Positions 31,988 to 58,448 of a DNA stretch of 64,000 bases are shown here, piece by piece. The position numbers and the translations under genes are program-made. The notes under the pieces were generated by a model. The model worked only from the letters and a program-made list of their open reading frames with translations. It ran no database searches and was not told the DNA's origin. The stretch is from Patescibacteria group bacterium. Lineage in GTDB: Bacteria > Patescibacteriota > Patescibacteriia > UBA10025 > JAHIVO01. How positions within the stretch are numbered: position 1 is the first letter of the stretch; each line of letters opens with the position of its first letter. The DNA lies in NCBI GenBank assembly GCA_028718605.1, contig JAQULM010000001.1:337073-401072 (forward strand). Direction: 5' to 3'.

Positions 31988-32023
31988 TTTTTCACCGCCG
32001 ATCTGCATATGCATCCGAGATAA

Positions 32024-32602: not shown

Positions 32603-32607
32603 AGGCG

Positions 32608-34815: not shown

Positions 34816-34929
34816 TACTTTTCCTAATAATTAACAAAAGACCCGCCGCTCACCGCGATGGGCAAATTTTAATCCAACAAATTGTATTCGAACACCGCCG
34901 CACCGGCGCAAGATGCTCTGGTGCAAGTA

Positions 34930-36078
34930 CTACACGATTTCGCGCATCGCGAGGCCGACTGCAACTGCAAGGCGCGGTCCGAGCTGGCGGAGCATCGTAT
35001 CGATTTCAACGGGATGGATCACGCGCGCCCATGGATCGCCGATGTACGTCTTGATATTGAAAACTTTTTCGATGCTCTCAGTAAAGTTCCCGAGGAAAGC
35101 CGAGCCGCCCGTCAGAATAATCTTTGAAACTGTTTTCTTGTGTTGGCCCTGGTAGATATTCAAGATATAGCGCACCTCGTTGACAACGGAATTAATCACA
35201 TACCGCACCGGCTGCGGAAGCTTGTCGATTGACGTGCCGGCAAAGGAACCGCCCATATCATGCTTAAACTGCTCAGCTGCGTGCTCTGGCAAACCCATGG
35301 ACTCTGCAAGGGACTTCGTCACCGATTTACCGCCGAGGTCGATGCTTCGGTGGAGCATCGGCACGTTGTCCGCAAAAATGCTGATGCTGGTCGCCTGGCT
35401 TCCAACGTCTATCACCATCACCGGATTCCGGTCATTGCCGACCAATGATCGCTGCAGGGAAAAAGACTCTGTCTCCAGCCCCACCAATTGCAGCCCCACA
35501 TCCCGGAATAATTCTACATACCGGTTCACCATTTCCTTCGGAGCAGCGGTCAAGAGCACTTTGATGTTGCCTTTCTGGATCATGCCAACCTTTTCGCTTT
35601 CCTTTGATTCTTTCTCTTCTTTCTTATCCTTTTTCGCTTTCTTGCCGGATGCGTCCCCCTCCGCGGCTGTTTTCGCCTGCTTACTGTCCTTTGCGTCTGT
35701 ATCTTGCCCCAGCACTTCCCAGTCGAGAATCATCTCCTCGAGCGGAATCGGCACAAACTTCTTCGCCTCCCAGCGTACGGCGGAAATCAAATCCTTCCTG
35801 CTCATTGCCGGCAAACTGATGATAGAGCTGAACACACTATAGCTCGGCAGAGCAGCAACCGTCTTATCGGTTGAAACGCGCGACCGTTTGATGAGCTCTT
35901 TGAGGTGCACGGCGACAGCGTTCCGCGCTTCAGCGCTCGTATCTTTGATAATGCTGTATGCGCCCTCGACAAAACCATAGGTCACCAACTGCGGCCGGTT
36001 GCCGACGTTTTTCAATTCGACGATTTTGATGCTCGGCCCGCCGAGATCAACTCCGAGATAGTTTAATTTCTTTGCCAT
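34930..36078 (-). CDS. pilM: type IV pilus assembly ATPase-fold protein PilM
   Basis: 382 aa. 'LGVDLGGPSIKIVEL' is the actin-like phosphate-1 motif. It has a K/E-rich roughly 40-aa insertion ('GKKAKKDKKEEKESKESEK'). Confidence 0.85.
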   Translation of the reverse strand: MAKKLNYLGVDLGGPSIKIVELKNVGNRPQLVTYGFVEGAYSIIKDTSAEARNAVAVHLKELIKRSRVSTDKTVAALPSYSVFSSIISLPAMSRKDLISAVRWEAKKFVPIPLEEMILDWEVLGQDTDAKDSKQAKTAAEGDASGKKAKKDKKEEKESKESEKVGMIQKGNIKVLLTAAPKEMVNRYVELFRDVGLQLVGLETESFSLQRSLVGNDRNPVMVIDVGSQATSISIFADNVPMLHRSIDLGGKSVTKSLAESMGLPEHAAEQFKHDMGGSFAGTSIDKLPQPVRYVINSVVNEVRYILNIYQGQHKKTVSKIILTGGSAFLGNFTESIEKVFNIKTYIGDPWARVIHPVEIDTMLRQLGPRLAVAVGLAMREIV

Positions 36079-36098: not shown

Positions 36099-39000
36099 TT
36101 ACGGAACCACACGCTGATAAACGGGAAGCGCCTTCGAGAAGTCTGACAAACCAGGCGGCGTATTCGCCAGCACCCTTCCATCATAGACGATTTGTTCCGC
36201 AGCAGCAAGGTCTTTGAGGTATGTACGATCAAAATTGAAACCTTTCGCTACCAGCAAACCTGATACTTTCAGGGGCACTACATAATCAACTTCAAGAACG
36301 GTCCTGGTTACTTCACTGATCCCCCGGTATTCGCCAGCTCCTACCGTTTCCGGATCGCGCCGCAGCCGAATCGTTGGTTCGGTAAATCCAGCAACTCCTG
36401 GCTGATACAGATCGCGGCTGATGAATGTTTCGATAAGATCAGCAATATCAGACGTGACAATCGTGCTCCCCGTAGGCCAATCGCCCGCAGCTATGGTCTG
36501 CGCTTCTTCAGACGTTGCTCTATCAAGCGGCAAGTCGAACGGATTACCACCGTCAAACGTGCCCGGAAATCCATCTAATAACCCCTGCCGCACCTCGAAA
36601 CCTGCACTCCCTAAACCGCAGATCGTGCTTCTCAGGGAGGCCCGCTTGATATCTGCATTCTTCGGCAGGTCAAACTCGCGGAAGCGGAAAAAATCACGCT
36701 CCGTGTCACTATACGACCCGAACCGCATACAGTCATCGAGCGTATCTGCGTTGTAGAACGGTTCGAAGGCAACCGCATCATCCAATTCATCCACGATGGG
36801 ACGCGTGACGCGCTGCGGCGCGTAATCAATGACGAGCTGCGGTTCGTTCCCTGTTACGGGATCATCCCACGCACGGGCGATCGCTAACTCATCATTGGCC
36901 GCGGTCCCTTCGTTCAGCATGAGGCCAATTGCATTGCCTGCAGCATACTCAGGCATGTCGATAAACCGTTGTACCAAACTTTTAATATCAGGGGATGTAT
37001 TCTGCGCATTTGCCTGCCAGTCCGCCATCGGGAAGCTTATGCTGTTCGTCGTGTCGAGATTATAGATATTCGCTGGATCATTCCCATAATTCGCGCTGTC
37101 AAACGTGGCGACGTTTGTCGAGTCAATGAGATAAATCCGTGAATTAAAGTCACCTGCCGATACCCCGTTTCCCGTAAGCCTCAAATACGCGTGGATAATC
37201 TCAGAGCCCGCTGGGATGTCGAGAGGGAATCGCAGGAAACCACGGTATGTTGCAGTCGCATCCTTGCCGATTCTAATGGTTGTGCCAAGTGTCATATTGA
37301 CGCTATCCGAACTCACGTCAGTATCATCAGTGCTGGACTCGATGACTTCCTCGGCGGGAACTAAACGACCGGTACTGGTTACGCCGTCCTCTTCTGGCGT
37401 TGCCGGATTGTCAATCGCGACAAACGCACCACCCAAATCAGTAACGAACGGGTCGATATAGATATTGCCGCGGACAATGAACGCCGCTGACGGCATTTCA
37501 CTTACATTCTCGAGGCCAGTCTCATCATAGGTAATATTTGCCCGAATTTCGAGGTCACCGTCTATCACGAAGAGTCCGCCCCCGGTCGTTCCACTGGCGG
37601 CGGTGCCTTTCATGAACTCCATTGGATTTGAAATCACATACCGCGTATCAGCTCCATGGAAATAATACACCGTACCATCGAGAACTGGTTGGATTGCAGA
37701 CGGTGATAATGCTGCGCTCGCGCTGATATCAACGATGCCGCTTCCTCCGCCGCTACTCATATCTTCCACGACCGGATTGCCGTACCGATTCAATCCGTCG
37801 CCATCACTGTCATCGGTCAGCCGGCCAACATTAATACGGTCGAGCACGTCTTCGCCGAGCGGGTATCCGGTACCAGTAATCAGCGGCTCGAATCCTGTTT
37901 GGTAATATCCGCTCGTCGGCCGTCCTGTCTCGGTCCCACTGTAATACCCGGGAATGCCCGAAATGCTTTCTTCGCCTTCTTGGCCTGACGTAATGAGGAA
38001 TGTGCTCGTGTATGACCCAGAGCCGCGTGCCGGAGGCGCGAGTTCGACCGTCGTGCCCGCATAAATATCGCTGAACATCGTCTGCACCCACGGGATGCCG
38101 AGAAGCGCAGTTGCAGGCATGAATTCCACCCAGCCAACGCCCGCCTGGCGTACGCCGGGGAACCACTTCGTGAACATCAAGTCGCTACTCGCGCACACAT
38201 ATGCCCGGTATACCCGTTCGAGGCATTGGGGGTAGGCCTCGTCAGTACATACGCTTACGTCATTCGCGGCTAGTAACGAACCAGTCGCCCTGCTCCGCTT
38301 ATCAACCCGAAGGTCGGTAGAATCTTGTCGGCCGATGAAATACACGTACGGATTCGCAATGACAACATCGTACGCAGCCCATCCGCCCCAATCAAGAACG
38401 GTACCCGCTCCACCATTGCCCCAGTCCATGCTAACACCGCATGCACCGTCGGTACACAACGCGCCCGTCGATTTCAAACGCTTCTCGAGATACCAGCCAC
38501 GGCTCGTGCAGCCTGTGGCAGGATCGCACGTCTCGCCGGCAATATACATCATGTCCCCGTCGAGCGCGATTGCATGTGCATCCTCAGTACTGGCACCGAC
38601 ATCAACACTGATTGTACCCGCAGGATCACCGTTTGCACCGCCGAATCCAGATACCAGCTCGCCACGTTTCATATCCCGCTTCTCGAGATGCCATCGTCCA
38701 TTCTCGGCCTGGGAATCGCTGCCGGAAATATACAGATACGTTCCATCCGTCGTAATGCTGAAATTATCACCGTCAACAAGGCCGGCATTCGCTCCAGTCA
38801 AAAACCCGGTGCCATTGCCGAACATCGGATCGAGCTTGCCCGTGGAGAGCAGCCGCTTTTCGATGCGCCACCGGCCGCTGCCGAAGTTCGTACCGTCATA
38901 ATTTTCGTACCCGATGACGTACATATGCAAGCCACTGATAACGATATCAGAAGCGCTTGCGAACCGGCCGGCAATGTACGCCGAGGTCACGACGCCGTCA

Positions 39001-42000
39001 CTATCAAACGTAGTATCGAGCGCGCCGGTCGTCAGCAACCGCTTTTCGATGCGCCAGCTCGTCGGGCTGGCGGGATTGAACGTCCGGCCAACGAGGTACA
39101 TAGACGTACCGTCAATCGCAATGCCGTACGCCGCATCACCGCTGCTGCTATAAAGTCGTCCAGTCCCATTAAAAGCGCCTGCTGTGCAAGCGGCAACCCC
39201 ATTGCACAAGTCACCGGTCGTTTTATTCCGTTTCTCAACAAACCAGTAGTCATCGAGAGGCTGCGCTGGTGTATTATTGTCGCGGATCCCTGAAATGTAT
39301 AAATAATTTGCGTCAACAGCAACATCATACGCAATCCACGTATCAGCCCCTCCTGAAATATGCCCATCGCCGTCAAAATCTGTAACAAGATCGCCGTTAT
39401 TGAGCCATCGCTTCTCGATCCACCAATTGTCTGCTTCGGTACTCCCAACCGTATACAGGTACGTCCCGTCGCTGGCAGCTGCGCGTCCCTGGGAGCTCTC
39501 AATGCCACCCTCAACGACCTGCCCGCCTGTGCCGAATGCAGAGCAATCGCGGGTGCTGAACTTGGTCTCGTCCCAAATAACGTTCTGGTTGCCCCAACGG
39601 TCGAGCTTCAGCATCGGGCCTTCGGACGGTTGAGTGTTTGATTCATACACGTTGTAGTATGGCGTCGCAGGATTTGATACCGCCTGTGTGCTGTACGCAG
39701 CAGTCACCCATCCGCCTGCACCACCATTGGCAGCGGGATCCCACTGCCGGAATCGGATATTCGCTGCTTCATTGGCATACCCCGAATCATAGTCCCCCCA
39801 TACCACTTCAGGGATATTATTCGCATCAAGCACGAGGGAAACTCGGCGCCCATAATAGCCTTGATTAGTATTCACCTGTAAATTCGTACGATCATCCCCA
39901 CTCATCGTAACCCATGCCCCTGCTCCAGAATCCCACCTGCGTAATAGGACTGCCGCCGGATCAAGCCATGCGATATACGGTACGCCTGATGTGCTCACGG
40001 CGAGTGAGGGCCGTGCCCCGTCAGGCAGCCAGTTTGCATCAGCGCCGGTCGGGTATGGCGATCCAGCGGGCCCAATATCGGCATTCACCGACACGTCTTC
40101 TCCTGATAAACCCGCAGTAACGTCATCGCTTGCTGTTACCCATCCGCCAGCGCCTGCATTCGCGTCCCCGTTCCAGCGACGGTAGAATATCTGATGGTTC
40201 ACTGCCGTGATATCCTGTTCCCAGGCAATGTGGGGCGTATCGCCATCAAGCGCGAGAGTCGGCATTCCTTTTGAGTCAGTCGGCGTACCGCTTACGTCAA
40301 GATTTGCTGAATTATTATTCATCGGAATCCAACCTGATCCCAAATCCTGCTTATAATTGATTGCCGAGGGCTCTCCCGGTATGCCAGCCCAGGGCCCTGT
40401 CCGATACACGATATGCTTGGTGCCAGACGCACCGATCTTGATCATGGGTGTTTGCGCAGGTGACGCTTGGAATAATTGGGTAATCCAATCTTCCGTTTCA
40501 GGATCCCAATATGTGTAATAGAGCGTGCCTCCCTCGCGCATATTATCGAGACCACCATCCTGCCACGCGATGTGCGGATCACCACTCGGATCAAGAGCGA
40601 GAGATATGGATAAAACGCCTTCCGCCGCACTCGTCACGCGTAAATTCGCAGCACTGCCCGGCGAATCGAATGCGTCACCCGATGCCGTTACCCATCCGCC
40701 TGAAACGAGTTTTGCATAGTACACTTCGTTTCGACCCGTATCAGGATCGATTCCGATCCACGCGACATGCTGGTTTCCGCTCCGATCAACCTCGAGCACT
40801 GCATTCGAACCCTTCAGCGGTCGGCGCGCAAGTCCGCTTCGCGTGACCTTTTCAGGTTCAAGCCATCGAGAATATATATTGAGGTCCGAATGTTCCGCGT
40901 CCCATCCCCACCCGAGCAAGCTGTACAGCTGAATCTCATTGGGATTGACGTCGGGATCGCCAAGGAATTGCTGGGAATCGATTTCAACGCCGGTCACTGT
41001 ATACGGTCCCGCTGTGCCTGCGCTGTTATCATACTGGCCACCGAGCTTAATCCAGCCCCAGTTACATGGCTCCGTCCCGCCTGTATGGCCGCAGGTCGTA
41101 TTCTCCCCGGCTTGCTTCACAGCGACGAGGCGCGCCCACCCCGTAACCTCGTGCGTCGTGCCATTGAAGTTGGCTGTCGCATACGGCCGACACTCGCCGG
41201 AAACAAGGCATGCGTCGCCGGTTTGACACGTCTCATAAATGCACTTCGGCTGCTCATCGCCGATAATCGGACACATTGAAATATCGGACTCTGTGCATTC
41301 AATATCACGATCACTGGAACAAACGCCGTACCGCTGGCCCGCTGCGCCGGTTGTGGTATAACAATACCCATACAAAACATTGCCGGGAGGCGTACCAGCG
41401 ACAGTAACACCAGCACTCGCCTCTTCTGCGGTCGTATCGATACATGTGTTCCCGGTACCGCATTCTGAGTCACCCGCACACCCGCGTTGGGAATCATTCG
41501 AACACACGCCTTCGAACAAGCTGATCCATCCGATTCCAACGCTGCTCGTAACGAAGTCTTTGCGGATGACTGACGTATAATACGGTGCTCCGCCACCGCC
41601 ATTATTCGCAATCCATACCGCATCATCCCCGAATACTGATTGCTGGGGACTGTTAAACTGGGGATTAGCCGCGCCGAGATTGGTATATGTCCTGACAAGC
41701 TGCCTCGTACGGATATCGATTTGATATATCTGGCTATCGGTCTGGTTATTGACCCACATGTACTTGCCGCTCGACGAAATGCCGGACATTGCCTGGCCGC
41801 CCGATGTCAGCACAATATTTGCAACCACCGCTCCCGCGCGATCCATGACAGTAACGCCATTGGTACGCGTTACCCAGATATTCGTGCCGTCGGAAGCGAT
41901 TCCCTCTAACATTGAATTCCCGATGGAATAACTCGCCACAGAGCCATCCACAATCGAAATGCGCGATACAGTGATGTCCCCGTTATTCGGCACCCAGACG

Positions 42001-45000
42001 TACCCCTGATCGTACCTCAACCAGTACGGATTGCTGCTCACGGCACACCGTGTCGGTGCGCCCGTAGGGACCGTGCCGTTACAGTTCAGCTCAGTACTAT
42101 CGCTCGTACGGATCCGGGCAACATTCGCCGTGTTGAAATTGGACACCCACAGGTCCCTGCCGTCGAACGTGATACCCCATGGCTGGCATACATCCGAACC
42201 GCATCCGGAAAGCTGCACCGACCCGCCCTGCCCGATAGGCGCAGCGGTATGTGTGACAGGATCAACTTTTAATACAATCCCGTCTTTCTTGCTGGCAATC
42301 CATAGGTAACCGTCTGCATACACGATCCCCTGCAGGTAGCAGTCCGCTGATGTGCATATTTCATACTCACCGGCAAGCGAAGCGTCTGCAGTGCGGAACT
42401 GGAGTAGCCGCCTGTTCTCGCGTGTCGTTACCCAGACATAGGGACCGCCGGGCGTATCTGAGTCGTACTCGACGCCGTTACCGGAGCCGTATGACTGTTC
42501 CCCTGCGGCAAGTGCCCGCCAGCTGTCCGCCAGGGCCTGTCCCGATGCCGACCACCCATATCCCTCGAGCGGATTGATATCGCGCTGCTCGTCGAAATCG
42601 GTATTAAGGCCCCAGTGCTTCCCGATCGAACAGCTATAATCGGTCTGGTCGTAACGATTCAGGCAGTTCATCGACACCCATCCGAGTGTCGAAGACCACG
42701 CCCATCCTACAATATTATTTTTTACGAGGAATAATGTCGCTTCGCTCCCGAATGCAGTCGCGAGCGAATCCTCATTCTCCGCCTTTACCTTGTAGTCATA
42801 TTTCAAGGACGCCTCAAGCCCCTCGATGATAGTGCCATCAAGATCTGTGCGCCAGTTGGGGCCGCTGGTTGCGTCGCAGGTGCCCCCATTACAATCAGCG
42901 CTGGTTGCGCAACTCGTGCCTGGTTTCGTTCCGCCGACGCAAGCTTTTGACTCGCGCACTGCCCAATGGCCTGACGTATCCCCGTCAACGCAGTCTTGGC
43001 TCGGGAACCAGTCAGCTCCATTGAATATGCAGTCCGCTTTATTCGTCTGCCAGTCGTCCTCCGAACAATACCCCCAGTCATCCGCGAGAGCAGCTTCACA
43101 GTCCGTCTCGTTCGTGAAGGCAGGGTTGCCGCACACACCCCAGTTGACCGTTGTCCTGCCGTCATTCAACCCGTCGTAGCCATCCGGGAATAAATATTTC
43201 GAATTCATTGTTCCGCCATCGTTGTACCGCGACACACAAACTGCATACTTCGTTATCGCCGGATTTTCATCCGAATCGCGCAGCGTCAACCTGACTGACG
43301 ACCCGCTTACCTGCCGCAACAACGGCCGAACCGGCGTATTCGCCCGCGTATACGCACACACGGGAGTATCAGGTTTGCTGGCAGTAATGTCATTCGTCCC
43401 ATCGGCGGCTGAACCAGTGCGATTCCGCGCCTGTACTTGGTAGCAGTATTCCACGTTCGGCACGAGACTGCTGTCAATGACTTGATTGCCGGTAGGGCGG
43501 CCAAAGCTTGTAAAGCCAGACTGCGCGCCGGCGCCTGAATGGCCGAGCGTTTCAAAAAATCGAATGCCGGAACTTCCGATCCCAATGTTTGAAAATGTCC
43601 CGAGTGCACGAACGATCATACTCGTCGGAGTGATATTCGCGGGCGGTATCTCGATGCCTGTCGCAGCCTCGATCGAATTCGCGGCTGATCCAATCGGAGA
43701 ACACTGCCCTTCACGCTCCCTGCTGTCTACGCCACATGCATACAGGTTATACGAAGCATTTGCTGCCATTGTCGTACATCTGCCCCCGCCGTCACAATCC
43801 CCGTCCACTGCGCAACTCGTTCCTTCTTCGGTGCCGCTAACGCAGACCCCTGTTTGCTTGCAGGTCCTGGCGATACTGTCCCCGCATGGCGGATTGCTCG
43901 TGCTGTAATGGTAATGGTCGACGGCCGTGCCAGCAGACTGGGTCCAGGACCAGTACAGCGGATATGTCGGCCCTGCCTCGATCGGATTGTTGGTGTGTAT
44001 CGGCCTCCCCGGAACGCACGGGGGGAGCGTGTCGGTTGCATTCCGAGTATAGTCGGATTCGAGCGTGCCCGATATACCCGCCGCCGCACTGATACGGATG
44101 TATTGCGTCGCTGCACTGCATGCCAGGCTCCGGAATGAAAGAGAAGTCCCGTCCGAAATCTGGTTCCAGACATTTGAATACTGGGTGCCGGTCGAATTGT
44201 CGTATGGCCGGATATTCGTCCATGTGGTTCCGTTAACCGAATACTGGTATTTATAGTATGCGCCTGCTGGGTTAGCTGACGAATCACTGAACGTCGTATT
44301 GCAGTAATACCCACGCGCTAAACTGTAATTGCATGCGATCGACGGATCATCCGGCGGCATCAGTGGCATGCATTCTACAACCTTCGGATAATCCGCCGGC
44401 CAATTGACAAAATATGGATCTCCACTGGGAAACGCATCGCCGTCCGGAAAATTATACGCAGCGTCCTCACCAACCTTATCTTCAAAATTCCTGCTAATTG
44501 ACCGGAACGTGAAGCATTTTCCAGGGCTGAAATACTCTTTTAATTCACGGGGTTCGCTGGATGACCAACCGCAGGAACACCATGGGCATGCACTTGCATA
44601 CGACTTACCCCAATCCGGGATGCGGGGCATGCCGCTGGTCGACTGCTCAGGAGAACATTCGCCGAAAAAGTACGTTTGCCCTTCATCATTTGTCACGGCA
44701 AACGCATAGTCGGTGCTCGATGGATTGTCAGGATATAAACCCGTGCCGGTATTCAGGTACACCTCGATCGATCCAGACGTGACGTCGCCGATCGTCATTG
44801 GCTGGGGATTTCTTGCCCGGCTATACCCCCACGCCCAGTCATTGTCCCAGTACACGTCCCCAACCGGATCCTGGTTATACTCCGGGCTCCGCAAGCTATC
44901 CCGGGAAAATAAACTTACCCCATATTGGCTATTTGGCGCTATGGCGGTTGCCGCTGTTTCGCCGGTGAGTGTCAGGGTGCCCGCACCGCACTGATAAACG

Positions 45001-47327: not shown

Positions 47328-47348
47328 ACGGACGGTACGCCGTGAAAA

Positions 47349-49820: not shown

Positions 49821-49825
49821 AGTAT

Positions 49826-52800
49826 CTATAAGTCTCGGCATTGTAATTGGCTCCCTGGTCCGCTCCGGTTGTACCAAACGTCGTACGCCATGCATTTGTT
49901 GCATTCACCATTAGAATCGTTGTAGTATTCGCACTGCGGAAATGCATCTGGGCAATCTGCGTTGGAATCATCGCTCGCGCAGATATGCCCGCCGCCACAA
50001 CCCAGCGCATCCTCTATTGTTCGCTCCCACCATACGACATGCGTCCACCCGAGGCTATCAATCGCCACCTTTGGCGCGCCCGACTGCAGGGTCGGCGTCT
50101 GGCTGACATTTACATTCGGGTCAGCAAAACCACTGCCAGAATTGCCAGAAAGAGTCACCCAGTTGGTGCCGTTCCACCAGCGGTAGTACACTTCCCGCGG
50201 GCTGCCGCCCACTCCCGTATTATCTGTATACGCAATATGCGGCTGGTTGTTTACGATACGAACGGACGGGAAGAACGACCACGGGTCGGTACTGTCGTTA
50301 ACCCGCAGGTTCGTGCTGTTCGTCTGGCCGGTAACAGTCACCCAGTTGGTGCCGTTCCACGTCCGGTAAAAAATATACTGCCAGTCCACCCAGGCAATAC
50401 CCGGCGTATTATCGGAATACAGGCTGAGTGCGGAATATTTTGCGGAAAAATTGGTTGGCGGTTCGCCTGCTCCGAGTATATTCGCCACATTTTCATTGAC
50501 CTTGACGTTTGCACCGGCGGTTCCGGGTGTTGCATCACCGCTGATAGTCACCCAGCTGGTGCCGTTCCACCGCCGGAAATAAATCTGGCTGTAATCGCCG
50601 GCCGCTCCGTGCCTCCCTTCGGTCCAAACAATATTGGGCCGTTGATTTGGCGCTTCATTGCCGAGTGCGAGCATAGGATATTCTGATCGCTCAGTGCTAT
50701 AATCAGTGCCCGTGTTGCTTACGACAAGATTTGCGTCAAGCCTCGTATCGGCCCACGTCCCTCCTGTGCCCCAGGCACCGGATACCGTTACCCATGCGCC
50801 GTCGCCACCGTTGGCGGCAGGATCCCACCGCCGGTAAGAGATCTCATTATCATTTGGATTGGGTTCATCCGTATCAGTAGACATAAACGCAATATGCGGT
50901 ATCCCATCCCTGTCTACCTTCAGCGAAGGATTATACCCCCCGCCGACAGTCAAACCGCACCGCTCGAGGGTCGGGTAGCTCGGATAATCATCGCAGTAAC
51001 TCCAGTCAAAAACTGTATTCGGCTCCCCCCGCGCGCCCCGCGGTACATTCTGCGCTGTTTCCCACTGGCCACCATTCTCATCCGGATCCCAGCGCAGGTA
51101 GTACATCCCGCCGCCCTCGTTAACCCAGGTAACGTGGGGATTATTATCAGCGTCAAGCGCGAGTGTGGGAGTGCTCGCTCCTGGTTCTGCGGAAGAGTCA
51201 TCTTCGGTTTCTAAACAATTCGAAACATTGGTAATTTGATCGATTCCGCTCGGATCGTATTCCTGGCCGGCAGCATTTTCCCAGCGGTTGTCCTCGCTGT
51301 CCCACCGCACATACAATACTTCGAACGAATGCTCCCCGTCGTCCTGCACACACGTTGGATCCAAGTTAACCCATGCGATCCTGGGATCTCCGTCTGACCC
51401 TATCTCAATAGACGGCCCGTTGTACTTGCTCTCCACACTATCACGCGCCGCACCATCAGTACGACTTACGTTTTGTGCGGTATCCCACCTCGGTACGCTC
51501 GATAGAGTGATGCCTTTCGCGAACTCACCGGCAACGCAGCTATCACCGAAATAGCTCATGTCATCACTTGTACCCCCCCAGGCATTTGCAGACACAACGA
51601 GGTCACCCTCACACGTCCCTGCGCCGCACTCGCTGTCCTGCGTACACGCGACATCCGCGTTGTTGCTGCAATGGCTCAGCACTGTGAGGTCATTGCCGAA
51701 TGAAGCTGTCCCTGCGATAGAAATCGCACCTTGCTGGATATTCCTGTCAGATATGCCTGATAGGTACACCGAACTTGCAAGATCCGATGGCCGGTCCGTG
51801 CCGCCTGCCTGGAACTTGCGGAGCGTGTACTTGTCAGAGCTCCCGTCGAGAGCGGTGTGGCAGCTGCCCGCGAGCCAAACAGAGCTCCCGTCATACACGA
51901 GCCCGACTGCGCCACAGTAGTCGCCGAAATCAACGCTCTCTTTGGTCTCGCCCGTGGCGGCACTCATTCTCGTCAGATGCATATCATTGGACGACGTTTC
52001 CTCGCTGGTATCAGCTGCGCTCGAGCAGCCAGGATCCGGCTGGCCGGAACAGCCCGGCGATCCCACGGCGCCATCGTAATCGCACAGCCCATTGCCGTCA
52101 TTGTCTATGCCATCAGCGCATTCAATATCCGTCGTGGTGCCATAGTAATCGCTGCTGTCACCCTCGTGCAAGTCGTACGGATCCTGGCATTGCGGATCCG
52201 GCGGCAAACTATTACAACCGCCATAATCGCACGTCCCATCACCATCATTATCAATCTCGTCAGCACACTCGCGATGATTATTCCAGTCAAATGAAGAATT
52301 ATGCGCTGCCCACACATACGTACCGTCAAACAAAAGCTGGTCCACGCGCGCATAGACAATATTTTGAATATTTTGAGAAATACACGTACTGCTCGAACCG
52401 CAATCAATGTTCGAACACTCTCCGGGTGCCGTGCAATCCGCGTCAGATGCGCAGTAAAGATTCGTATTGGTGCAACGGCCTGGCTCAGTATATATCTTGG
52501 ATTTGCCGGCAATCGGGCAGGTCATTGTGCCGTCGCTGCACCCGAGCAGATCAATCTTATAGATTGCGTATCCCTGGCTATCCGCGTACCGCAGGCCGAG
52601 CCACGCGTACGTACCATCATATACGATCGCTTGGATGTTCCCCGCGAGCGCCTCGGGCAGCACTTTGTACGGCCCGGTGACTGCGCCGGTTGCAATGTTA
52701 ATTCTTGACAGGCTATCGGCACCTGTTGCCGTATCCGAGCGGGTTGTATGTGAAAACCATGCGTACCCATTTGCGATCATGAGCTTGTTTGGCTCTTTGA

Positions 52801-55678
52801 GGCTGCCGCCGGCAGTATAGGAAGAATACTCCGTGACCGTGCAGGTACCGGGGCTGCCGGCAACGCACGACTGGAGATCTACTTTCTGCACTTTATTGTA
52901 ATTATCCTGCGCCAGCCATAGGTTGCGGCCGTCAAAGCCGATATCGGAGCCGCTGCTCCTGGTAAGGGGCAAAACCCAATTATATTTTCCAATGACTGAT
53001 CCATCCCGCGGATCAATTTTCACGAGCATCTCGGCAGCTGACGCATCTTGAATAACCCAAACGTAGGTACCGTCAAAAAATGCGTACTTCGGATCATTCA
53101 CGTTCCCGTAGTCGCCAACTTTCGTACCGTCAGCGGCACGATACGCGCTAATGCTGTCCGCGTAGTTATTCGTTACCCAAATATTCGTCCCGTCAAACGC
53201 GATATCGCTCCGCGTCGTACCCTTAATCGAAAACGCTGTCGTGGTATATGGACTATTAATTTTACTCCGCGCGACCGTACCCGCGTACAACTGGGTCGTC
53301 CAAACATATGGCCCGCCTTTCGTCACACGGTCAAAATCAAAACCCCACACACCGCCGCTGAGGGGATAGGTGTGGTCGACAGTCTCTGATCCAATAGTAA
53401 ACTTTGTGATTTGCTCAGTGCCATAATTAGAAGCTACCCAGAGGAACGGACCGCCGCTCGAAACTGAATCGTACATAACCTGCGTATTCCCATATCCGTA
53501 TTGTGAATTGCTCGCATACAAGTACTCTTCGGCGATCAAGCCGGTTGCATTATTAAACCTGCCGAACCCCCGGAATGTGCCGGGTTGCCTACCCGAAGGA
53601 TTATGTGCAACCCAGAGCTGGTTATTCACGGGATCGTACGCCAGATCTGCATTGCCGCGGGCTGGTCCGGTGCAATAGTAATCCTGCAACGAGGCATTCA
53701 GAGGATCGGCTGCATTAATTTTACCGATACCTTCACCCACCGAAGCGGCCGAATACAGCGGACCGGAAGAAAACCAAATAGTCGTACCGTCAAATTCAAT
53801 GCCTGCCGCCATGCCAAACGGCCGCACGACGAGGCGCTCGTCATCATCGGGTCCGACATAATTTGCATTGCCGGGTACCGGATCATAGGGGCTCGATCCG
53901 GGCGTCGCTGTTGATAAATTACATTCAATATCAGGTGCTTTCCATGTATTACCGCATCCGCTCAAGCACGTTGCCTGGGTTGTGCAGTCGGCATCCGTGC
54001 AGGTCGTGCCGTCCCAGGTGCCTCCGGTGCACGTACCGCACTGCGCTTGGGTACACGCCTCGATGCTACATGTACCACCCCGCCATTCTGGAACAAAACC
54101 ATACTTATCAGCGCCGGCAGCAAGGCATGTTGCCTCATCGGTATACGTTTGATCAGTGCACGTACCCCCGGTCCACGCCGCCGCCGCATTGGCCGCCGTA
54201 CAAGCAGCCTGATCCGGAACACTGTCAAACACGCATAAGCCCGAATCGATATTCCCGTCAGCATCATTATCGAGCAGGTCAGTGCATTGATTGCCGACTT
54301 GCGACTGGCTTGAATACCGGTCCTGGTCAAGCGTTACGCATTGGCTGCGTGTGATCGGCGGAATCTCAACATACGTGCCGTAATCAGCGCTCGATTCATT
54401 GACGTTCAAGCGCGAAATGCTGTACGATTCGCCGATCTGATTTGCAGTCCAGATGTACGGGCCGCCTGCAGTTGCATCATCGTATACAAGATCCATCGCG
54501 TAGTTTCCGATCCCTGGGGCGTCCGCGGTCCAAAAATTCAAAATTTCAGGATTATTGGCATCCGGCGTAATCCGTGTCACTGCAGGATCCCACCAGCTCA
54601 AACCGCCATCCAGCCAGATGTAGCCATCTGCATAAATCATATTTGAAAAGCCATGGTTCGTTCGATCCACCGCTTCGCCATACACGGGACCGTATGGCTC
54701 AAACTCATTGATCAGCTGGCCGTTCACCGGATCGATGACAAATATCGCCGAGTCGTCAAAGTTCGCTACCCACACGTACCCATTGACATAGAGCACTGAT
54801 TCCGGCTCTGTGTTGCGGGCCGGCTCAATCTTCTCAAGCTCCCAGTTTGCGCTGTAGGGAACTGTAGAATATGACATGTCTGACTGGACAAATTTCCGGC
54901 CGGTGACATGCTCGGAACCGTACAAACGCTGTGCGAAATAGCCTGCCCAGGCACCGAGCCCTTTTGCGCTCGCGTATACGCCGGCAACAACATTAGTGCC
55001 AGGAATGGCTTCCCCAGCAGATTCGCCAGACACCGCGGACGCGGAAACGCTCTCAGCCATGATGCCCACGCCACCACCCGCATTCAGCCCCCACACGCCA
55101 GGGCCGGAAACGCTTGAGCCGTATACGGACGCCGCTGATGCGGCAGACGATGAGCCATAGACGCCATAACTCGCGTCCGAAGCTGCGTAGAGTGCGCTGC
55201 CAGTGCTTATCGGGCTTGCAGTGCTGCCGACGCGAAGCGTCCCATTCACAATATCGACAAGCGCCATCGGCGCATCAGTACCAATTCCAACCCGATTAAA
55301 TTCCGGCTGGACGTACAAAGTATCCGTATCGACTATGAGGGTACCGCTGCCTGACACATTTTCGCTTGCTGGTATCTCCAATGTCGTCATGGATACCGGG
55401 CGCGGACCGTGGACTTCAAGCGGATAGCTGATGCTCGGGAGGGGGTCAGCGGGATTATACAGGGGGTCGAGAAGAAGGCGCCCTTTCTTCGCCTGTGAAT
55501 CTGGTCCGATATTTATCGGCGCGTATATATTGCCCTCTGGCGCTGGCGCAGTCGGTTCTTGCCACTGTGCATGCACAATGTGCGACCCTGCGATGAATGC
55601 AATCACGATAAACGAAAAGCCTATGCACGTGAGCGCGGTTTTTGTGCTGCGCCGAAATGTAAGCGTAATTTTTTTCAT
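49826..55678 (-). CDS. giant secreted repeat protein (1950 aa from ATG 55678) with beta-propeller repeats, Cys-rich DNDGDG metal-binding-like blocks and WNGTxWVT repeats
   Basis: The track start at 55702 is TTG; the ATG at 55678 (MKKITLTF...) is used. Signal peptide ends 'HIVHA'. It has the shared N-terminal module, 'FDGT(N/Y)(I/V)WV' repeats, 'C.D.IDNDGDG.CDY' blocks and four 'RWNGTxWVTxSG' units. Confidence 0.8.
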   Translation of the reverse strand: MKKITLTFRRSTKTALTCIGFSFIVIAFIAGSHIVHAQWQEPTAPAPEGNIYAPINIGPDSQAKKGRLLLDPLYNPADPLPSISYPLEVHGPRPVSMTTLEIPASENVSGSGTLIVDTDTLYVQPEFNRVGIGTDAPMALVDIVNGTLRVGSTASPISTGSALYAASDASYGVYGSSSAASAASVYGSSVSGPGVWGLNAGGGVGIMAESVSASAVSGESAGEAIPGTNVVAGVYASAKGLGAWAGYFAQRLYGSEHVTGRKFVQSDMSYSTVPYSANWELEKIEPARNTEPESVLYVNGYVWVANFDDSAIFVIDPVNGQLINEFEPYGPVYGEAVDRTNHGFSNMIYADGYIWLDGGLSWWDPAVTRITPDANNPEILNFWTADAPGIGNYAMDLVYDDATAGGPYIWTANQIGESYSISRLNVNESSADYGTYVEIPPITRSQCVTLDQDRYSSQSQVGNQCTDLLDNDADGNIDSGLCVFDSVPDQAACTAANAAAAWTGGTCTDQTYTDEATCLAAGADKYGFVPEWRGGTCSIEACTQAQCGTCTGGTWDGTTCTDADCTTQATCLSGCGNTWKAPDIECNLSTATPGSSPYDPVPGNANYVGPDDDERLVVRPFGMAAGIEFDGTTIWFSSGPLYSAASVGEGIGKINAADPLNASLQDYYCTGPARGNADLAYDPVNNQLWVAHNPSGRQPGTFRGFGRFNNATGLIAEEYLYASNSQYGYGNTQVMYDSVSSGGPFLWVASNYGTEQITKFTIGSETVDHTYPLSGGVWGFDFDRVTKGGPYVWTTQLYAGTVARSKINSPYTTTAFSIKGTTRSDIAFDGTNIWVTNNYADSISAYRAADGTKVGDYGNVNDPKYAFFDGTYVWVIQDASAAEMLVKIDPRDGSVIGKYNWVLPLTRSSGSDIGFDGRNLWLAQDNYNKVQKVDLQSCVAGSPGTCTVTEYSSYTAGGSLKEPNKLMIANGYAWFSHTTRSDTATGADSLSRINIATGAVTGPYKVLPEALAGNIQAIVYDGTYAWLGLRYADSQGYAIYKIDLLGCSDGTMTCPIAGKSKIYTEPGRCTNTNLYCASDADCTAPGECSNIDCGSSSTCISQNIQNIVYARVDQLLFDGTYVWAAHNSSFDWNNHRECADEIDNDGDGTCDYGGCNSLPPDPQCQDPYDLHEGDSSDYYGTTTDIECADGIDNDGNGLCDYDGAVGSPGCSGQPDPGCSSAADTSEETSSNDMHLTRMSAATGETKESVDFGDYCGAVGLVYDGSSVWLAGSCHTALDGSSDKYTLRKFQAGGTDRPSDLASSVYLSGISDRNIQQGAISIAGTASFGNDLTVLSHCSNNADVACTQDSECGAGTCEGDLVVSANAWGGTSDDMSYFGDSCVAGEFAKGITLSSVPRWDTAQNVSRTDGAARDSVESKYNGPSIEIGSDGDPRIAWVNLDPTCVQDDGEHSFEVLYVRWDSEDNRWENAAGQEYDPSGIDQITNVSNCLETEDDSSAEPGASTPTLALDADNNPHVTWVNEGGGMYYLRWDPDENGGQWETAQNVPRGARGEPNTVFDWSYCDDYPSYPTLERCGLTVGGGYNPSLKVDRDGIPHIAFMSTDTDEPNPNDNEISYRRWDPAANGGDGAWVTVSGAWGTGGTWADTRLDANLVVSNTGTDYSTERSEYPMLALGNEAPNQRPNIVWTEGRHGAAGDYSQIYFRRWNGTSWVTISGDATPGTAGANVKVNENVANILGAGEPPTNFSAKYSALSLYSDNTPGIAWVDWQYIFYRTWNGTNWVTVTGQTNSTNLRVNDSTDPWSFFPSVRIVNNQPHIAYTDNTGVGGSPREVYYRWWNGTNWVTLSGNSGSGFADPNVNVSQTPTLQSGAPKVAIDSLGWTHVVWWERTIEDALGCGGGHICASDDSNADCPDAFPQCEYYNDSNGECNKCMAYDVWYNRSGPGSQLQCRDL

Positions 55679-55682
55679 AATG

Positions 55683-57758
55683 CTAGAGCGGCCGGCATTC
55701 AATTTTCGTCACCCTGCCAGATGCATCCACCGATATATCCGTAAGGAAGTGCCCGGTTGGGCACGTTTGCGTCGAATTCCCAGGAAAAGGATTAATCCCA
55801 TCGCCAAGAGTGTCTCCTACGGTTTCTCCGCCCCACACATTATTCTGTGCGCTCAGATCACCATCCGCGATAAAGCCCATCCCGACTGTCGCCGACCCAT
55901 CGATCGAGAAAGAGCCTTTCTGCTCAGTGAGCGGATCAATGTTCTGGAGAGTGAGTGTTCCACTCAAATCCGTGGTGCCATACCCAACGCCTGAGTACCT
56001 CTTCGTCAGCCCGGTTGGTCCCGAAACCCAGAGAGACGATCCGTCAAAGCGCATACCCGTTGGGCTGAACCCGAGTGAAAATGTCTCCCGATCATTCGGA
56101 TCGGCGGCCTTGAGCGCTGAAAGCGTCCCGGTGCCTGCATCCGCAGTCCAAATATGCACGCCGTCAAAGGCGATCGCAACGGGCGAATCACTAGTGGCGA
56201 ACGACCCATACGGAACCGGGACCGGGAAACACCCGCCGAGATCCTCACTGCTTCCGCCGACACAGTCGGAATTGACCGCGCATGATTTCCAGTCGAGCGT
56301 AGAAGGATCTTTCAGGGAGCATATCCTGCTCCCAGAAAGGTAAAATCGCGTCACTGAATCGTCAGCCCCATTGGTAACCCAGTAATACGCATTGTCATAA
56401 AAAATATCAGTCGGGCTATTGCCGATGACATTCTGGTAGATTGCCGCATCGGCCGACGAAGGGTTGAGCGCAACGACATACCCACCGTCATCGCCTGACG
56501 CGATTGCGTACAGCATATCGCCATTATAAATAATTCGGCCAACCTGCACGTCTTCAGGGGTAACCTCAACGATTCCCCCTGCGACAAGCCCGCAGTTTGG
56601 CGTATCCGCATCGTAGCGGATTTTTACGATCACCCCTTCACCGGTATCTGCCGTCGCCGTTACCCAGTAAAAACGGTTTAATTCGTGATCTTGCACCGTA
56701 CCCTGGCCGCTGAATGCGATTCCACGAGGATCTGACACGGAAATCGATGTTAGGTCAAGCGAGCAGCGTACATCACCTGACACCGGATCGATTCTGCGTA
56801 CGGTATTATCCGCAGCAACTGCCCAGAGGGCGGTGCCATCATAGATCACGTCTGCCACTTCCCCGCCAAATGAAACATCGAGGAGAGAAAAACCATCGGG
56901 AACCCGTACCTTCATAAGCGTATTCCCTCGGCTCAGCCACACGTTGGTACCATCGTAGTAGCGTACCGTGTTCGGGCCAATCGTAAGATCCATGAGCTCT
57001 TGGCCAACAGTATAGGAGACCATGGAACTCTGGAGCTGTGTCGGGACAAATTTCGCGCCCACCACATCACGCGACGACTCGAGGAGTCCCCCAAAATAAC
57101 CGGCCCATAAGCCAGCGGTATTCTCATTCGTGCCATAGATAGCATACCCACTGTCGCTGAATGCACCGATTGCACTGTATAAATATCCAGTGTTTTCGCC
57201 CGACACCGGTGTGTTCAGGGGATTCACTGCCCAAATGCCATAATTATCCTCCCCATATGCCACTCCCCGAACTCCGGATTCCGTTCCAGTTCCCTTTATT
57301 GCCTCAGTTTCGGTACTCTCAGCATGCACGCCTTCCCCCGCCGCATTATCAACCGTCATCGGGCCGCCACTCACCTCTAGTTTGCTCCCGTCGAGCCCTA
57401 AGCACGGGCCGATACAAACCCGATTTGCCTCTGGGTCAACATATAAGGTATCACCGCTCTCGCTCACCTTCAGCTTCTGATCAATGATGGCTTGATTGAT
57501 CTGGGCGCCTTCCCCTTGGACCTCAAGCTGGTATTTAAATGGTCCCGATGCATCGTTGGTGCCGAGCCGAAGCGCGCCAGTCTTCACCTGATTGTCATCC
57601 CCGATCGTGATATACGGAACAGTGTTATCTCCAGGCGGGGCAGCAGTTGGGGTATCCAGCGCAGCAGATACGCCCACGGCGATTGACAGCCCAAGTACGC
57701 CGAAACAAAAAAATAGGCAAAAATATGCCGATCTATTGATTTTTTGCCTATTCTTCAT
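55683..57758 (-). CDS. large secreted beta-propeller repeat protein (691 aa from ATG 57758)
   Basis: The track start at 57779 is GTG. The ATG at 57758 (MKNRQKINRSAYFCLFFCFGVLGLSIAVGVSA) gives a signal peptide. It has the shared N-terminal module and 'YDGTNVWL', 'YDGTALWAV', 'FDGVHIWTA', 'FDGSSLWVS' repeats. Confidence 0.75.
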   Translation of the reverse strand: MKNRQKINRSAYFCLFFCFGVLGLSIAVGVSAALDTPTAAPPGDNTVPYITIGDDNQVKTGALRLGTNDASGPFKYQLEVQGEGAQINQAIIDQKLKVSESGDTLYVDPEANRVCIGPCLGLDGSKLEVSGGPMTVDNAAGEGVHAESTETEAIKGTGTESGVRGVAYGEDNYGIWAVNPLNTPVSGENTGYLYSAIGAFSDSGYAIYGTNENTAGLWAGYFGGLLESSRDVVGAKFVPTQLQSSMVSYTVGQELMDLTIGPNTVRYYDGTNVWLSRGNTLMKVRVPDGFSLLDVSFGGEVADVIYDGTALWAVAADNTVRRIDPVSGDVRCSLDLTSISVSDPRGIAFSGQGTVQDHELNRFYWVTATADTGEGVIVKIRYDADTPNCGLVAGGIVEVTPEDVQVGRIIYNGDMLYAIASGDDGGYVVALNPSSADAAIYQNVIGNSPTDIFYDNAYYWVTNGADDSVTRFYLSGSRICSLKDPSTLDWKSCAVNSDCVGGSSEDLGGCFPVPVPYGSFATSDSPVAIAFDGVHIWTADAGTGTLSALKAADPNDRETFSLGFSPTGMRFDGSSLWVSGPTGLTKRYSGVGYGTTDLSGTLTLQNIDPLTEQKGSFSIDGSATVGMGFIADGDLSAQNNVWGGETVGDTLGDGINPFPGNSTQTCPTGHFLTDISVDASGRVTKIECRPL

Positions 57759-57840
57759 TAGAAAATGCACACCTTTCACGGTATGTTACATTACCTAAAA
57801 ATAGAATTGTACCCCCACGATTGCCACGAGGAGAAGCCGT

Positions 57841-57869: not shown

Positions 57870-57923
57870 TAATGTACACGTCAGGCGTTTGAGTGTAATC
57901 ATTGTACCATATTTTTGGGCCAA

Positions 57924-58448
57924 ATGTCAATCAACGAAAAAATCGAAAAAACACCTACCGAGCAGCGCCTTAAGTATGCTATGCTTGGGTCCCTTATCAT
58001 TGTAACGTTGGTTGTCGGCGTCAGCCTTGCGAGCTATTACTACGGGAAACGGGCGACCTCAGAACTCGCGAAGTCCCCCATCCCGGTCATTGACGTTTCG
58101 ACAGTCTCAAAACAGCGTGTCCTCGGCGCGGCGATGTATAGTTGGCAGGGAACGGTTGTCGAACGAAACGGTTCAGCATTGAGCTTCAAGGCCTCTACAA
58201 AAAATGATGATGGGTCTCCGAGGGAAGCAAACCTCATCGCAACGATAAATGATGCCACGGAGCTCCTCCAATGGAATCTCACGACGTCCGCCGCACCAAG
58301 CCAAAACACAAGCACGAAGCAGCCAATCTCGCTCGATGATATCAACCCGGGTGTACAAGTCCTCGTCCAAGCAACAAATGATGCCAACAGCGATGGCGAA
58401 GTCCAGGCAGAAAGAATTTTAGTGCTCACAACGCCAACGGCCCCATAA
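57924..58448 (+). CDS. hypothetical membrane-anchored protein
   Basis: The track start at 57915 is TTG; the ATG at 57924 (MSINEK...) is used. There is one TM helix 'AMLGSLIIVTLVVGVSLASYYY' and no recognisable family. Confidence 0.45.
   Translation: MSINEKIEKTPTEQRLKYAMLGSLIIVTLVVGVSLASYYYGKRATSELAKSPIPVIDVSTVSKQRVLGAAMYSWQGTVVERNGSALSFKASTKNDDGSPREANLIATINDATELLQWNLTTSAAPSQNTSTKQPISLDDINPGVQVLVQATNDANSDGEVQAERILVLTTPTAP

What the first reader, a model, noticed from the sequence alone, without database searches (positions are those of the whole stretch)
36099..57779. Array of four giant secreted repeat proteins (about 7200 aa total, 21.7 kb) co-oriented with and abutting pilM-pilN-pilO-pilB-pilC-pilin
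Four consecutive minus-strand genes (691, 1950, 823 and 3742 aa) lie directly upstream of pilM, with only 5-21-nt intergenic gaps and no identifiable terminator between them. All four encode signal-peptide-bearing proteins built from shared repeat families. The downstream pilus genes have no secretin, which suggests a monoderm or CPR-type pilus. The arrangement implies co-expression and possibly a functional link, for example pilus-associated or tip-displayed adhesins, or substrates that use the pilus machinery for surface display. These proteins have no convincing family assignment visible from sequence alone, and together they account for a third of the window. This is the best candidate here for an undescribed system: a pilus-linked giant adhesin module.
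Basis: partly seen in the sequence, partly recalled or inferred. Interest (0 to 1): 0.8.

Follow-up and report, generated by a model that had tools for sequence, protein, structure and literature searches.

The report
Giant surface-protein operon ending in pilM
In a group of ultrasmall Patescibacteria (CPR) bacteria, three tail-fibre-like secreted proteins and one giant surface protein are always encoded directly in front of, and probably transcribed with, the pilus gene pilM, which points to a cell-attachment apparatus tied to the type IV pilus, though no experiment has tested it.

Summary
Four tightly packed minus-strand genes (691, 1950, 823 and 3742 aa; gaps of 4, 5 and 21 nt) end 20 nt before pilM in a Patescibacteria contig.

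The linkage is conserved:
- Eight loci carry the same "three + one giant" array.
- 13 of 13 species-representative loci found through PilM, and 14 of 14 informative metagenome loci found through the giant's C-terminus, place a giant-family gene immediately upstream of pilM.

G1-G3 are three ancient paralogs kept in fixed order. Each has a signal peptide, a 230-aa tail-fibre-like N-domain, one or more beta-propellers and a C-terminal "CRxL" end.

G4 is different. It has an N-terminal membrane anchor, many adhesin-type modules and a conserved C-terminal domain of about 330 aa. No Pfam, NCBIfam or PDB family matched that domain.

A consensus promoter lies upstream of G1. A terminator-like hairpin and a second, strictly conserved promoter lie between pilM and pilN. 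The predicted units are therefore G1-G2-G3-G4-pilM and pilN-pilO-fn3-pilB-RR-pilC.

Adhesin function and physical contact with the pilus are inferences. Giant surface proteins in CPR, and giant genes next to pilus-like loci in Omnitrophota, are already reported. I rate this a new variant of a known kind.

The parts
57901..57930 (-). Consensus sigma-70-type promoter with extended -10 (TTGACA-N-TGgTACAAT), about 140 nt upstream of G1. Predicted start of the operon.
   Evidence: 11/12 match with TG; the strict pattern occurs 3 times in the window against 0.04 expected.
55683..57758 (-). G1, 691 aa. Signal peptide (about aa 1-32), tail-fibre-like N-domain (aa ~33-262; nt 56973-57662), FDGxxxW beta-propeller blades, and a C-terminal Cys motif ending ...ECRPL.
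   Evidence: Positional orthologs in 7 other loci.
49826..55678 (-). G2, 1950 aa. Signal peptide, N-domain (nt 54809-55567), propeller blades and Cys-rich/Asp-rich modules, and a G1/G3-type C-terminal module near aa 1300-1400. A BNR-like 'YRRW' repeat extension (aa ~1400-1915) is shared with G4. Ends ...QCRDL.
47349..49820 (-). G3, 823 aa. Signal peptide, N-domain (nt 49011-49712), a confident 7/8-bladed beta-propeller (aa ~270-550; nt 48171-49013), a Cys-rich region, and a C-terminal motif ending ...SCAEL.
   Evidence: homologs. (AlphaFold2: propeller pLDDT 85-90, N-domain below 50). (YncE-like propeller, TM 0.74)..
36099..47327 (-). G4, 3742 aa. N-terminal membrane anchor (aa 8-31; nt 47235-47306), fn3-type modules (aa ~509-621 and later), a highly conserved 'GWAWS..GWVS' module (aa ~1500-1600) and a propeller (aa ~1600-1920). 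These are followed by BNR-like repeats (aa ~2149-2600), 'WxIEKR' repeats (aa ~2600-3040) and a conserved C-terminal domain.
36102..38201 (-). G4 C-terminal region (aa 3043-3742). It is the family-defining core of about 330 aa, interrupted here by two beta-sandwich-like modules (aa ~3340-3690), and ends in an invariant tail ...YDGRVxANTPPGLxDFxxALPxYxRVxP-COOH (nt 36102-36281).
   Evidence: codon positions 1/2/3 are 0.82/0.88/0.46 identical, which indicates selection at the protein level; one inserted module resembles an N-terminal module of a PilY1 protein.
34930..36078 (-). pilM (382 aa), 20 nt after the G4 stop codon. Predicted last gene of the giant-gene transcription unit.
   Evidence: (PilM_2, 2.6e-42).
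34833..34863 (-). Hairpin plus T-run just downstream of pilM (terminator-like).
   Evidence: Equivalent hairpin + T-run with different sequences in about 9 of 11 related loci.
34787..34815 (-). Strictly conserved promoter (TTGACT-N15-TGCTAAAAT) in the pilM-pilN gap. Predicted start of the pilN-pilO-fn3-pilB-RR-pilC unit.
   Evidence: it is the only strict match in about 20 kb in 11 related loci, always at this position.
27628..34656 (-). Pilus machine genes. PilN 32608-34656 (INLLP motif, then a Pro-rich linker of about 480 aa), PilO 32024-32602, fn3 protein 31064-32014, PilB 29296-31044, response regulator 28865-29254, PilC 27628-28833.
26872..27372 (-). Pilin with a prepilin N-methylation motif (GFTLIELLVV) and its own promoter-like site.

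Best explanation
The four genes and pilM form one conserved transcription unit that builds a cell-surface attachment apparatus working together with the type IV pilus.

G1, G2 and G3 are Sec-exported proteins. Their shared N-domain is a tail-fibre-like stalk, probably oligomeric and possibly a G1:G2:G3 heterotrimer. It carries beta-propeller heads that bind ligands on a host cell.

G4 is anchored in the membrane by its N-terminus and projects about 3700 residues of propeller, fn3 and lectin-like modules. Its conserved C-terminal domain, with an invariant free C-terminus, is the part that contacts a conserved partner. That partner is most likely the pilus (priming/minor-pilin complex) or the PilN/PilO/fn3 alignment complex, which would give G4 a role analogous to PilY1.

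Because pilM lies behind 21.7 kb of adhesin genes, and pilN onward has a separate promoter, pilus assembly would be coupled to production of the surface proteins.

Shown here: gene order, conservation, domain layout, and promoter and terminator motifs. Inferred: adhesion, oligomeric state, the docking partner and the regulatory logic.
For: Conserved linkage:
- Eight loci have M48-LemA-170aa divergent from three N-domain genes plus a 3464-5629-aa giant.
- 13 of 13 GTDB species representatives with PilM at 48% identity or more have a G4-family gene ending just upstream of pilM.
- 14 of 14 informative metagenome loci retrieved through the G4 C-terminus have pilM next, with PilM identity down to 40%.
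- A Saccharibacteria locus has a 491-aa protein with the same core between LemA/M48 and pilM (hhalign 92%).

Family architecture:
- The N-terminal part varies (total length 526-5629 aa) while the C-terminal core is constant and its tail is under protein-level selection. PilY1 shows the same logic.
- One inserted module matches an N-terminal module of a Pfam-confirmed PilY1 protein (hhalign 94%).

G1-G3:
- Positional orthology is perfect: 42-44% identity within a position against 27-30% between positions.
- The N-domain always sits at the N-terminus of its proteins: 75 cluster representatives below 1e-30.
- It contains one unit of a 33-aa repeat that is tandemly repeated in proteins carrying Peptidase_S74 and collagen repeats.
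- 13 of 23 N-domains hit a phage PHROG of unknown function, and 4 more hits across three other PHROGs are to families annotated tail fiber or tail protein.
- The monomer AlphaFold2 model is poor for this domain but good for the propeller.

Transcription signals:
- The strict promoter pattern occurs 3 times in the window against 0.04 expected: upstream of G1, in the pilM-pilN gap and upstream of the 941-aa gene.
- In 11 related loci its only occurrence is in the pilM-pilN gap, preceded by hairpin + T-run.
- No such promoter or terminator lies in the G4-pilM gap in this clade.

Literature: type IV pili mediate host attachment in cultivated Patescibacteria (PMC11623550, PMC10633639, PMC11880426).
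Against: - There is no transcript, localisation or binding data.
- No homology to the PilY1 propeller was found, and no prepilin leader.
- The minor-pilin block lies more than 20 kb away (9918-13706), not next to G4.
- An N-terminal membrane anchor in G4 is hard to reconcile with riding on an extending pilus tip.
- More distant family members have cleavable signal peptides, and pilM there has its own promoter. Co-transcription is therefore specific to this clade.
- Southlakia has ychF, not this gene, upstream of pilM.
- Structure prediction of the C-terminal domain failed (pLDDT 42), so its fold is unknown.
- Synteny in small, streamlined genomes can persist by descent or through shared regulation without any physical interaction.
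Confidence: 0.5

Rival explanations
1. These are independent giant surface adhesins or fibrils that decorate the cell envelope. They are co-regulated with the pilus as part of one host-attachment regulon but have no physical or assembly link to it. The conserved C-terminal domain of G4 and the N-domain of G1-G3 would anchor the proteins to the cell wall or S-layer, or to each other.
For: - All four have Sec-type N-termini, and none is pilin-like.
- Vampirococcus, a CPR predator, has ten membrane proteins of 1392-4163 aa with WD40/PKD domains, proposed to form its fibrous surface (PMC8080830).
- The window is a surface-structure island that also holds glycosyltransferases, Wzy and an ABC-2/Wzt exporter.
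- In distant relatives pilM has its own promoter.
Against: Adjacency to pilM specifically, not just to any pil gene, persists across PilM identities of 40-65% and giant sizes of 526-5629 aa. In this clade pilM is cut off from pilN by a terminator and promoter and joined to the giants. Neither pattern is expected from loose co-regulation.
Confidence: 0.3
2. G4-family proteins are a structural part of the pilus machine in these single-membrane bacteria, for example an exit or guide structure through the wall or S-layer. This would take the place held by secretin/PilP/TsaP in diderms. The variable region would be surface decoration.
For: - The conserved position flanks pilM-pilN-pilO, and no secretin is present.
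- The minimal family members (about 500 aa: signal peptide, GWxWS module, core) look more like a machine part than an adhesin.
- G4 in this clade has a membrane anchor.
Against: - Machine parts rarely vary tenfold in size.
- No oligomerisation or ring-forming domain was recognised.
- The gene is absent upstream of pilM in Southlakia, whose T4P genes are essential.
- The fold is unknown.
Confidence: 0.1
3. These are giant predatory or degradative proteins that digest host cell walls, like those proposed for the Omnitrophota giant genes next to T2SS-like loci, and the pilus-like system exports them.
For: The precedent is a conserved T2SS/T4P-like locus beside giant genes in Omnitrophota (bioRxiv 10.1101/2023.11.21.568195). 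There are weak BNR/sialidase-like repeat hits.
Against: - No catalytic domain was detected by Pfam or NCBIfam.
- Sec signal peptides suffice for export across a single membrane.
- The BNR_4 hit is below the curated threshold.
Confidence: 0.07

Closest known systems
PilY1 / PilC non-pilin tip adhesins of type IVa pili (Pseudomonas, Neisseria, Myxococcus)
   Same: Large Sec-exported non-pilin protein encoded with pilus genes. The N-terminal adhesive part varies and the C-terminal domain is conserved; in PilY1 that domain docks on the minor-pilin priming complex. One G4 module is related to an N-terminal module of a PilY1 protein.
   Different: No PilY1 beta-propeller domain (PF05567) was detected. 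The gene lies next to pilM rather than in the minor-pilin operon. G4 is 3-4 times larger, has an N-terminal membrane anchor, and is accompanied by three fibre-like paralogs.
PilX1/PilX2 minor pilins with large accessory domains in Saccharibacteria TM7x (PMC11623550)
   Same: Patescibacterial pilus-associated proteins with beta-propeller or jelly-roll modules, proposed to bind host glycans.
   Different: Those are pilins with the lollipop fold. G1-G4 have no prepilin leader or pilin alpha-helix and are far larger.
Giant genes adjacent to T2SS/T4P-like loci in Omnitrophota (bioRxiv 10.1101/2023.11.21.568195)
   Same: Ultrasmall, probably host-dependent bacteria. Very large multi-domain surface proteins sit in conserved proximity to a pilus-type secretion locus, and a role in prey adhesion is proposed.
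   Different: Different phylum, diderm-type system with GspD, genes above 25 kb, and no evidence of shared domains. Here the module has four genes with a defined C-terminal family domain, and pilM lies inside the unit.
Giant membrane proteins of the CPR predator Vampirococcus lugosii (PMC8080830)
   Same: CPR proteins of 1.4-4.2 kaa with WD40/PKD-type modules, proposed to mediate host recognition.
   Different: No linkage to pil genes and no shared terminal domains were reported. Homology to G1-G4 was not tested here.
Trimeric tail-fibre-like proteins with a Peptidase_S74 intramolecular chaperone (phage and Bacteroidota)
   Same: The G1-G3 N-domain holds one copy of the 'TLYVD..NRVGIGT..P..L.V.G' unit that those proteins repeat 5-24 times. 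There are weak PHROG tail-fibre hits.
   Different: There is no S74 domain, only a single unit, and beta-propeller heads; trimerisation was not shown.

Membership tests
PilY1/PilC (T4P_PilY1, PF05567) | C-terminal PilY1 beta-propeller domain | tested here: not met
   No PF05567 hit in G1-G4 or in the G4 C-terminal 700 aa, even at E<=1. The positive control P0163 hits at 3.9e-17.
PilY1/PilC (T4P_PilY1, PF05567) | Encoded within the minor-pilin (fimU-pilVWX-type) operon | tested here: not met
   The minor pilins lie at 9918-13706, more than 20 kb from G4.
PilY1/PilC (T4P_PilY1, PF05567) | Association with the pilus tip or priming complex | not testable with these tools
   This needs interaction or imaging data.
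Type IV pilins, including modular pilins | Class III signal peptide: short basic leader, G|F/M-T-L-x-E, hydrophobic alpha1-N | tested here: not met
   A motif scan finds it only at 27360, 15388 and 12210. The G1-G4 N-termini are Sec-type or a membrane anchor.
Secretin (PilQ/GspD) | Secretin domain | tested here: not met
   No secretin family hit in G1-G4 or in any scanned ORF of the window.
Peptidase_S74-type trimeric tail fibres | C-terminal intramolecular chaperone (PF13884) and tandem fibre repeats | tested here: not met
   No PF13884 hit. There is a single repeat unit only. Among the PHROG hits, only 4 of 23 N-domains match families annotated as tail fiber or tail protein.
DUF7305 (PF23981) / choice-of-anchor A (TIGR04215) beta-helix-like domains | Profile match above the curated cut-off | tested here: not met
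   Only 2 of 13 core sequences match each family, at E about 1e-3 and 1e-2, below the cut-offs. This is a lead for a beta-solenoid fold, not membership.
RTX/LapA-type giant adhesins exported by T1SS | RTX repeats or C-terminal T1SS signal, with an adjacent ABC/MFP exporter | tested here: not met
   No HemolysinCabind or related hit. The neighbours are pil genes and LemA/M48.
New family proposed here: pilM-upstream C-terminal domain proteins of Patescibacteria | C-terminal core of about 330 aa ending ...DGR.L.N.PPG..D....LP......P-COOH, encoded directly upstream of pilM | tested here: met
   G4 and at least 27 related loci.

The most novel reading that the evidence does not exclude
The G4-family C-terminal domain is an unrecognised core accessory of the Patescibacterial type IV pilus: a non-homologous replacement for PilY1 or for an envelope-exit module. 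G1-G3 assemble through their tail-fibre-like N-domains into a heterotrimeric host-recognition fibre that the pilus system deploys. By placing pilM at the end of a 23-kb adhesin operon, the cell licenses pilus assembly only once the adhesins have been made.
Probability: 0.2. Interest if true: 0.8.

Novelty: new variant of a known kind. Interest (0 to 1): 0.6.

Why it matters
Patescibacteria make up a large share of bacterial diversity and live attached to other cells. [quoted passage not shown]

This work defines a conserved, pilus-linked gene module with specific features: three ordered paralogs, a giant protein with a family-defining C-terminal domain, and pilM inside the unit. It offers concrete candidates for the recognition apparatus, a sequence signature for finding them in metagenomes, and a testable idea about how adhesin production and pilus assembly are coupled.

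Tried and rejected
- The homolog search with whole G4 timed out.
- The G4 C-terminus as a single query found only 2 proteins in the word-indexed database. As a profile it found 2 again. It found nothing in genome contigs.
- AlphaFold2 of the G4 C-terminal 700 aa with a 3-sequence alignment failed (pLDDT 42). I ran no fold search on that model.
- The G3 model was low-confidence for the N-domain. Its fold search only showed a generic propeller.
- PDB sequence searches with the N-domain profile, whole G4 and the C-terminal profile gave nothing meaningful.
- The G4 C-terminus shows no similarity to the window's 523-aa PilX-like protein.
- The N-domain has no relatives in viral contigs.
- Rfam found only a tRNA in the window.
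- I considered and rejected a pilin identity, because there is no prepilin motif.
- I rejected a sortase-type or other C-terminal sorting signal, because the conserved tails have no terminal TM segment.
- I found no paper describing this module.


Full report
**What is there.** The window is a contig of a Patescibacteria (CPR) bacterium. G3 is identical to an NCBI protein from a "Patescibacteria group bacterium" MAG, and PilM is found on Logan/SRA contigs. Four long minus-strand ORFs lie at the reported coordinates. With their ATG starts they are:
- G1: 55683-57758, 691 aa
- G2: 49826-55678, 1950 aa
- G3: 47349-49820, 823 aa
- G4: 36099-47327, 3742 aa

The gaps are 4, 5 and 21 nt between the four genes and 20 nt before pilM. 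No terminator-like site falls at any junction, and site counts equal shuffle expectation.

The downstream genes are PilM; PilN (no Pfam hit, but it starts with the INLLP motif that is characteristic of PilN, then has a Pro-rich linker of about 480 aa before its TM helix); PilO; an fn3 protein; PilB; a response regulator; PilC; and a pilin. No secretin occurs in any ORF I scanned.

**Anatomy of G1-G3.** These three share:
- a cleavable-looking signal peptide
- a 230-aa N-domain beginning xWxEPxxxPPxxNxxxP...Q.K.G.L
- FDGxxxW propeller blades
- a C-terminal module ending C...CRxL-COOH

Pfam and NCBIfam are essentially silent on them.

A profile of the N-domain, searched against 1.84 billion cluster representatives, finds 75 proteins below 1e-30. 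The match is always at the protein's N-terminus, and lengths are mostly about 640-2100 aa (a few shorter, probably fragments). Hundreds of weaker hits match only profile positions ~100-155, repeated 5-24 times. That unit (TLYVD..NRVGIGT..P..L.V.G) is the tandem repeat of Bacteroidota-type fibre proteins; of six I scanned, two carry the Peptidase_S74 chaperone and one of those also collagen repeats. In addition, 13 of 23 N-domains hit a phage PHROG of unknown function, and 4 more hits across three other PHROGs are to families annotated tail fiber or tail protein.

AlphaFold2 on G3 with 17 sequences gives a confident 7/8-bladed propeller (pLDDT 85-90; closest fold YncE) but an N-domain below 50. 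That is compatible with an obligate oligomer but does not show one.

**Anatomy of G4.** G4 lacks the N-domain. It starts with a 24-residue hydrophobic helix, which is conserved as a membrane anchor in close relatives. It then strings together:
- fn3-type modules
- a very conserved GWAWS..GWVS module
- a propeller
- BNR-like repeats shared with the G2 extension
- WxIEKR repeats
- a C-terminal region

**Is the linkage conserved?** Yes, from both directions.
- Starting from G3 homologs, seven further loci show the same layout: M48 peptidase-LemA-170aa divergent from three N-domain genes, then a 3464-5629-aa giant.
- The three paralogs are positional orthologs without exception: 42-44% identity within a position against 27-30% between positions.
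- Starting from PilM, all 13 Patescibacteria species representatives with PilM at 48% identity or more have a G4-family ORF ending just upstream of pilM, followed by the same pilN-pilO-fn3-pilB-RR-pilC-pilin order.
- Starting from the G4 C-terminus, 19 metagenome loci were recovered. All 14 with enough downstream sequence have pilM next, with PilM identity down to 40%.

**The family-defining part.** The defining element is a C-terminal core of about 330 aa that ends in an invariant free C-terminus...DGR.L.N.PPG..D....LP......P. In the window's clade two beta-sandwich-like modules are inserted before the tail. Among the fully resolved members total length ranges from 526 to 3742 aa, and gene calls that run off the fetched loci reach 5629 aa. 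Codon-position identities in the tail (0.82/0.88/0.46) show selection on the protein, not on the DNA.

A Saccharibacteria locus has a 491-aa protein with the same core (hhalign 92%), again between LemA/M48 and pilM but separated from pilM by a 942-aa secreted protein. Southlakia has ychF upstream of pilM instead, so the linkage is widespread but not universal.

**Transcription signals.** A strict extended -10 promoter pattern occurs three times in the window against 0.04 expected: upstream of G1, in the 273-nt pilM-pilN gap, and upstream of the 941-aa gene at 60333. In 11 related loci the only strict match in about 20 kb lies in the pilM-pilN gap, at an aligned position. In about 9 of 11 it is preceded by a hairpin plus T-run immediately after pilM, with different sequences forming the same kind of structure.

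In this clade the G4-pilM gap (6-170 nt, apart from one 471-nt insertion) has neither signal. More distant relatives do have a TTGGAC-N17-TGCTATAAT promoter directly before pilM. The predicted units are therefore G1-G2-G3-G4-pilM and pilN-pilO-fn3-pilB-RR-pilC. This rests on motifs only and needs transcript data.

**What the conserved domain is.** This remains unknown.
- There are no Pfam, NCBIfam or PDB sequence matches above threshold.
- Weak hits to DUF7305 and choice-of-anchor A in 2 of 13 members hint at a beta-solenoid.
- One inserted module is related (hhalign 94%) to an N-terminal module of a protein that Pfam confirms as PilY1. This is a shared accessory module, not PilY1 membership.
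- None of G1-G4 has a prepilin leader. The window's real pilins, three minor pilins, PilD and a PilX-like protein sit at 9918-15409 and 26872-27372.

**Interpretation.** The best-supported reading is a pilus-coupled attachment apparatus. G1-G3 would be fibre-plus-propeller binders. G4 would be a membrane-anchored scaffold or adhesin whose conserved C-terminal domain contacts a conserved partner in the pilus system. Placing pilM in the same unit would couple machine assembly to adhesin supply.

The main rival is co-regulated but physically independent surface fibrils. A machine-component role and a degradative role are less likely.

**Literature.** Published work establishes that type IV pili mediate host attachment in cultivated Patescibacteria (PMC11623550, PMC10633639, PMC11880426). 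It also reports giant surface proteins in CPR predators (PMC8080830) and giant genes beside T2SS/T4P-like loci in Omnitrophota (10.1101/2023.11.21.568195). I found no description of this particular module, but my search was limited to the held library.

Noticed in passing
window 32608-34656 (-): PilN starts with the classic INLLP PilM-binding motif. It then carries a Pro-rich, probably disordered cytoplasmic linker of about 480 aa before its TM helix. Relatives have 590-700-aa PilN proteins too, whereas the Saccharibacteria locus L021 has a normal 200-aa PilN.
   Followed up: partly
window 9918-15409 (-): A second pilus block: two pilins (14921-15409, 14449-14871), prepilin peptidase PilD (13618-14370), three minor pilins with N-methylation motifs (12918-13706, 12281-12904, 11497-12273) and a 523-aa PilX-like protein with no Pfam hit (9918-11489). 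No PilT was seen in the window.
   Followed up: partly
window 60274-63158 (+): A 941-aa protein with an N-terminal TM anchor but no prepilin leader. It has two pilin-globular-like stretches (T2SSG hit at aa 551-628), TSP3 repeats and a Calx-beta domain. It is preceded by one of only three strict consensus promoters in the window.
   Followed up: no
window 57915-60018 (+); L002, L004, L005, L021, L042-L045: A divergent trio (170-aa protein with no family, LemA, M48/HtpX-like peptidase) always borders the array. It is even present next to the pilM region of a Saccharibacteria MAG (L021).
   Followed up: partly
window 20001-26000: GC content drops to 0.41-0.43 from about 0.52 over the glycosyltransferase, methyltransferase and ABC-2/Wzt polysaccharide-export genes that lie between the two pilus blocks. 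This may be a variable surface-glycan island.
   Followed up: no
L015 9530-10000 and L023 8176-8646: In one species the giant-pilM gap is 471 nt instead of 6-170 nt and reads like an inserted small gene. In L017 a 200-aa ORF sits between the N-domain gene and the giant.
   Followed up: no
L008, L009, L020 (record titles): Three GTDB representative MAGs titled 'uncultured Gammaproteobacteria bacterium' carry this Patescibacteria-type locus, with PilM at 63-64% identity. The titles look like mislabels.
   Followed up: no
L034, L037, L038, L018, L019 (giant-pilM gap): In more distant relatives a TTGGAC-N17-TGCTATAAT promoter lies directly upstream of pilM. The promoter position therefore appears to have moved from before pilM to after it in the window's clade.
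   Followed up: partly
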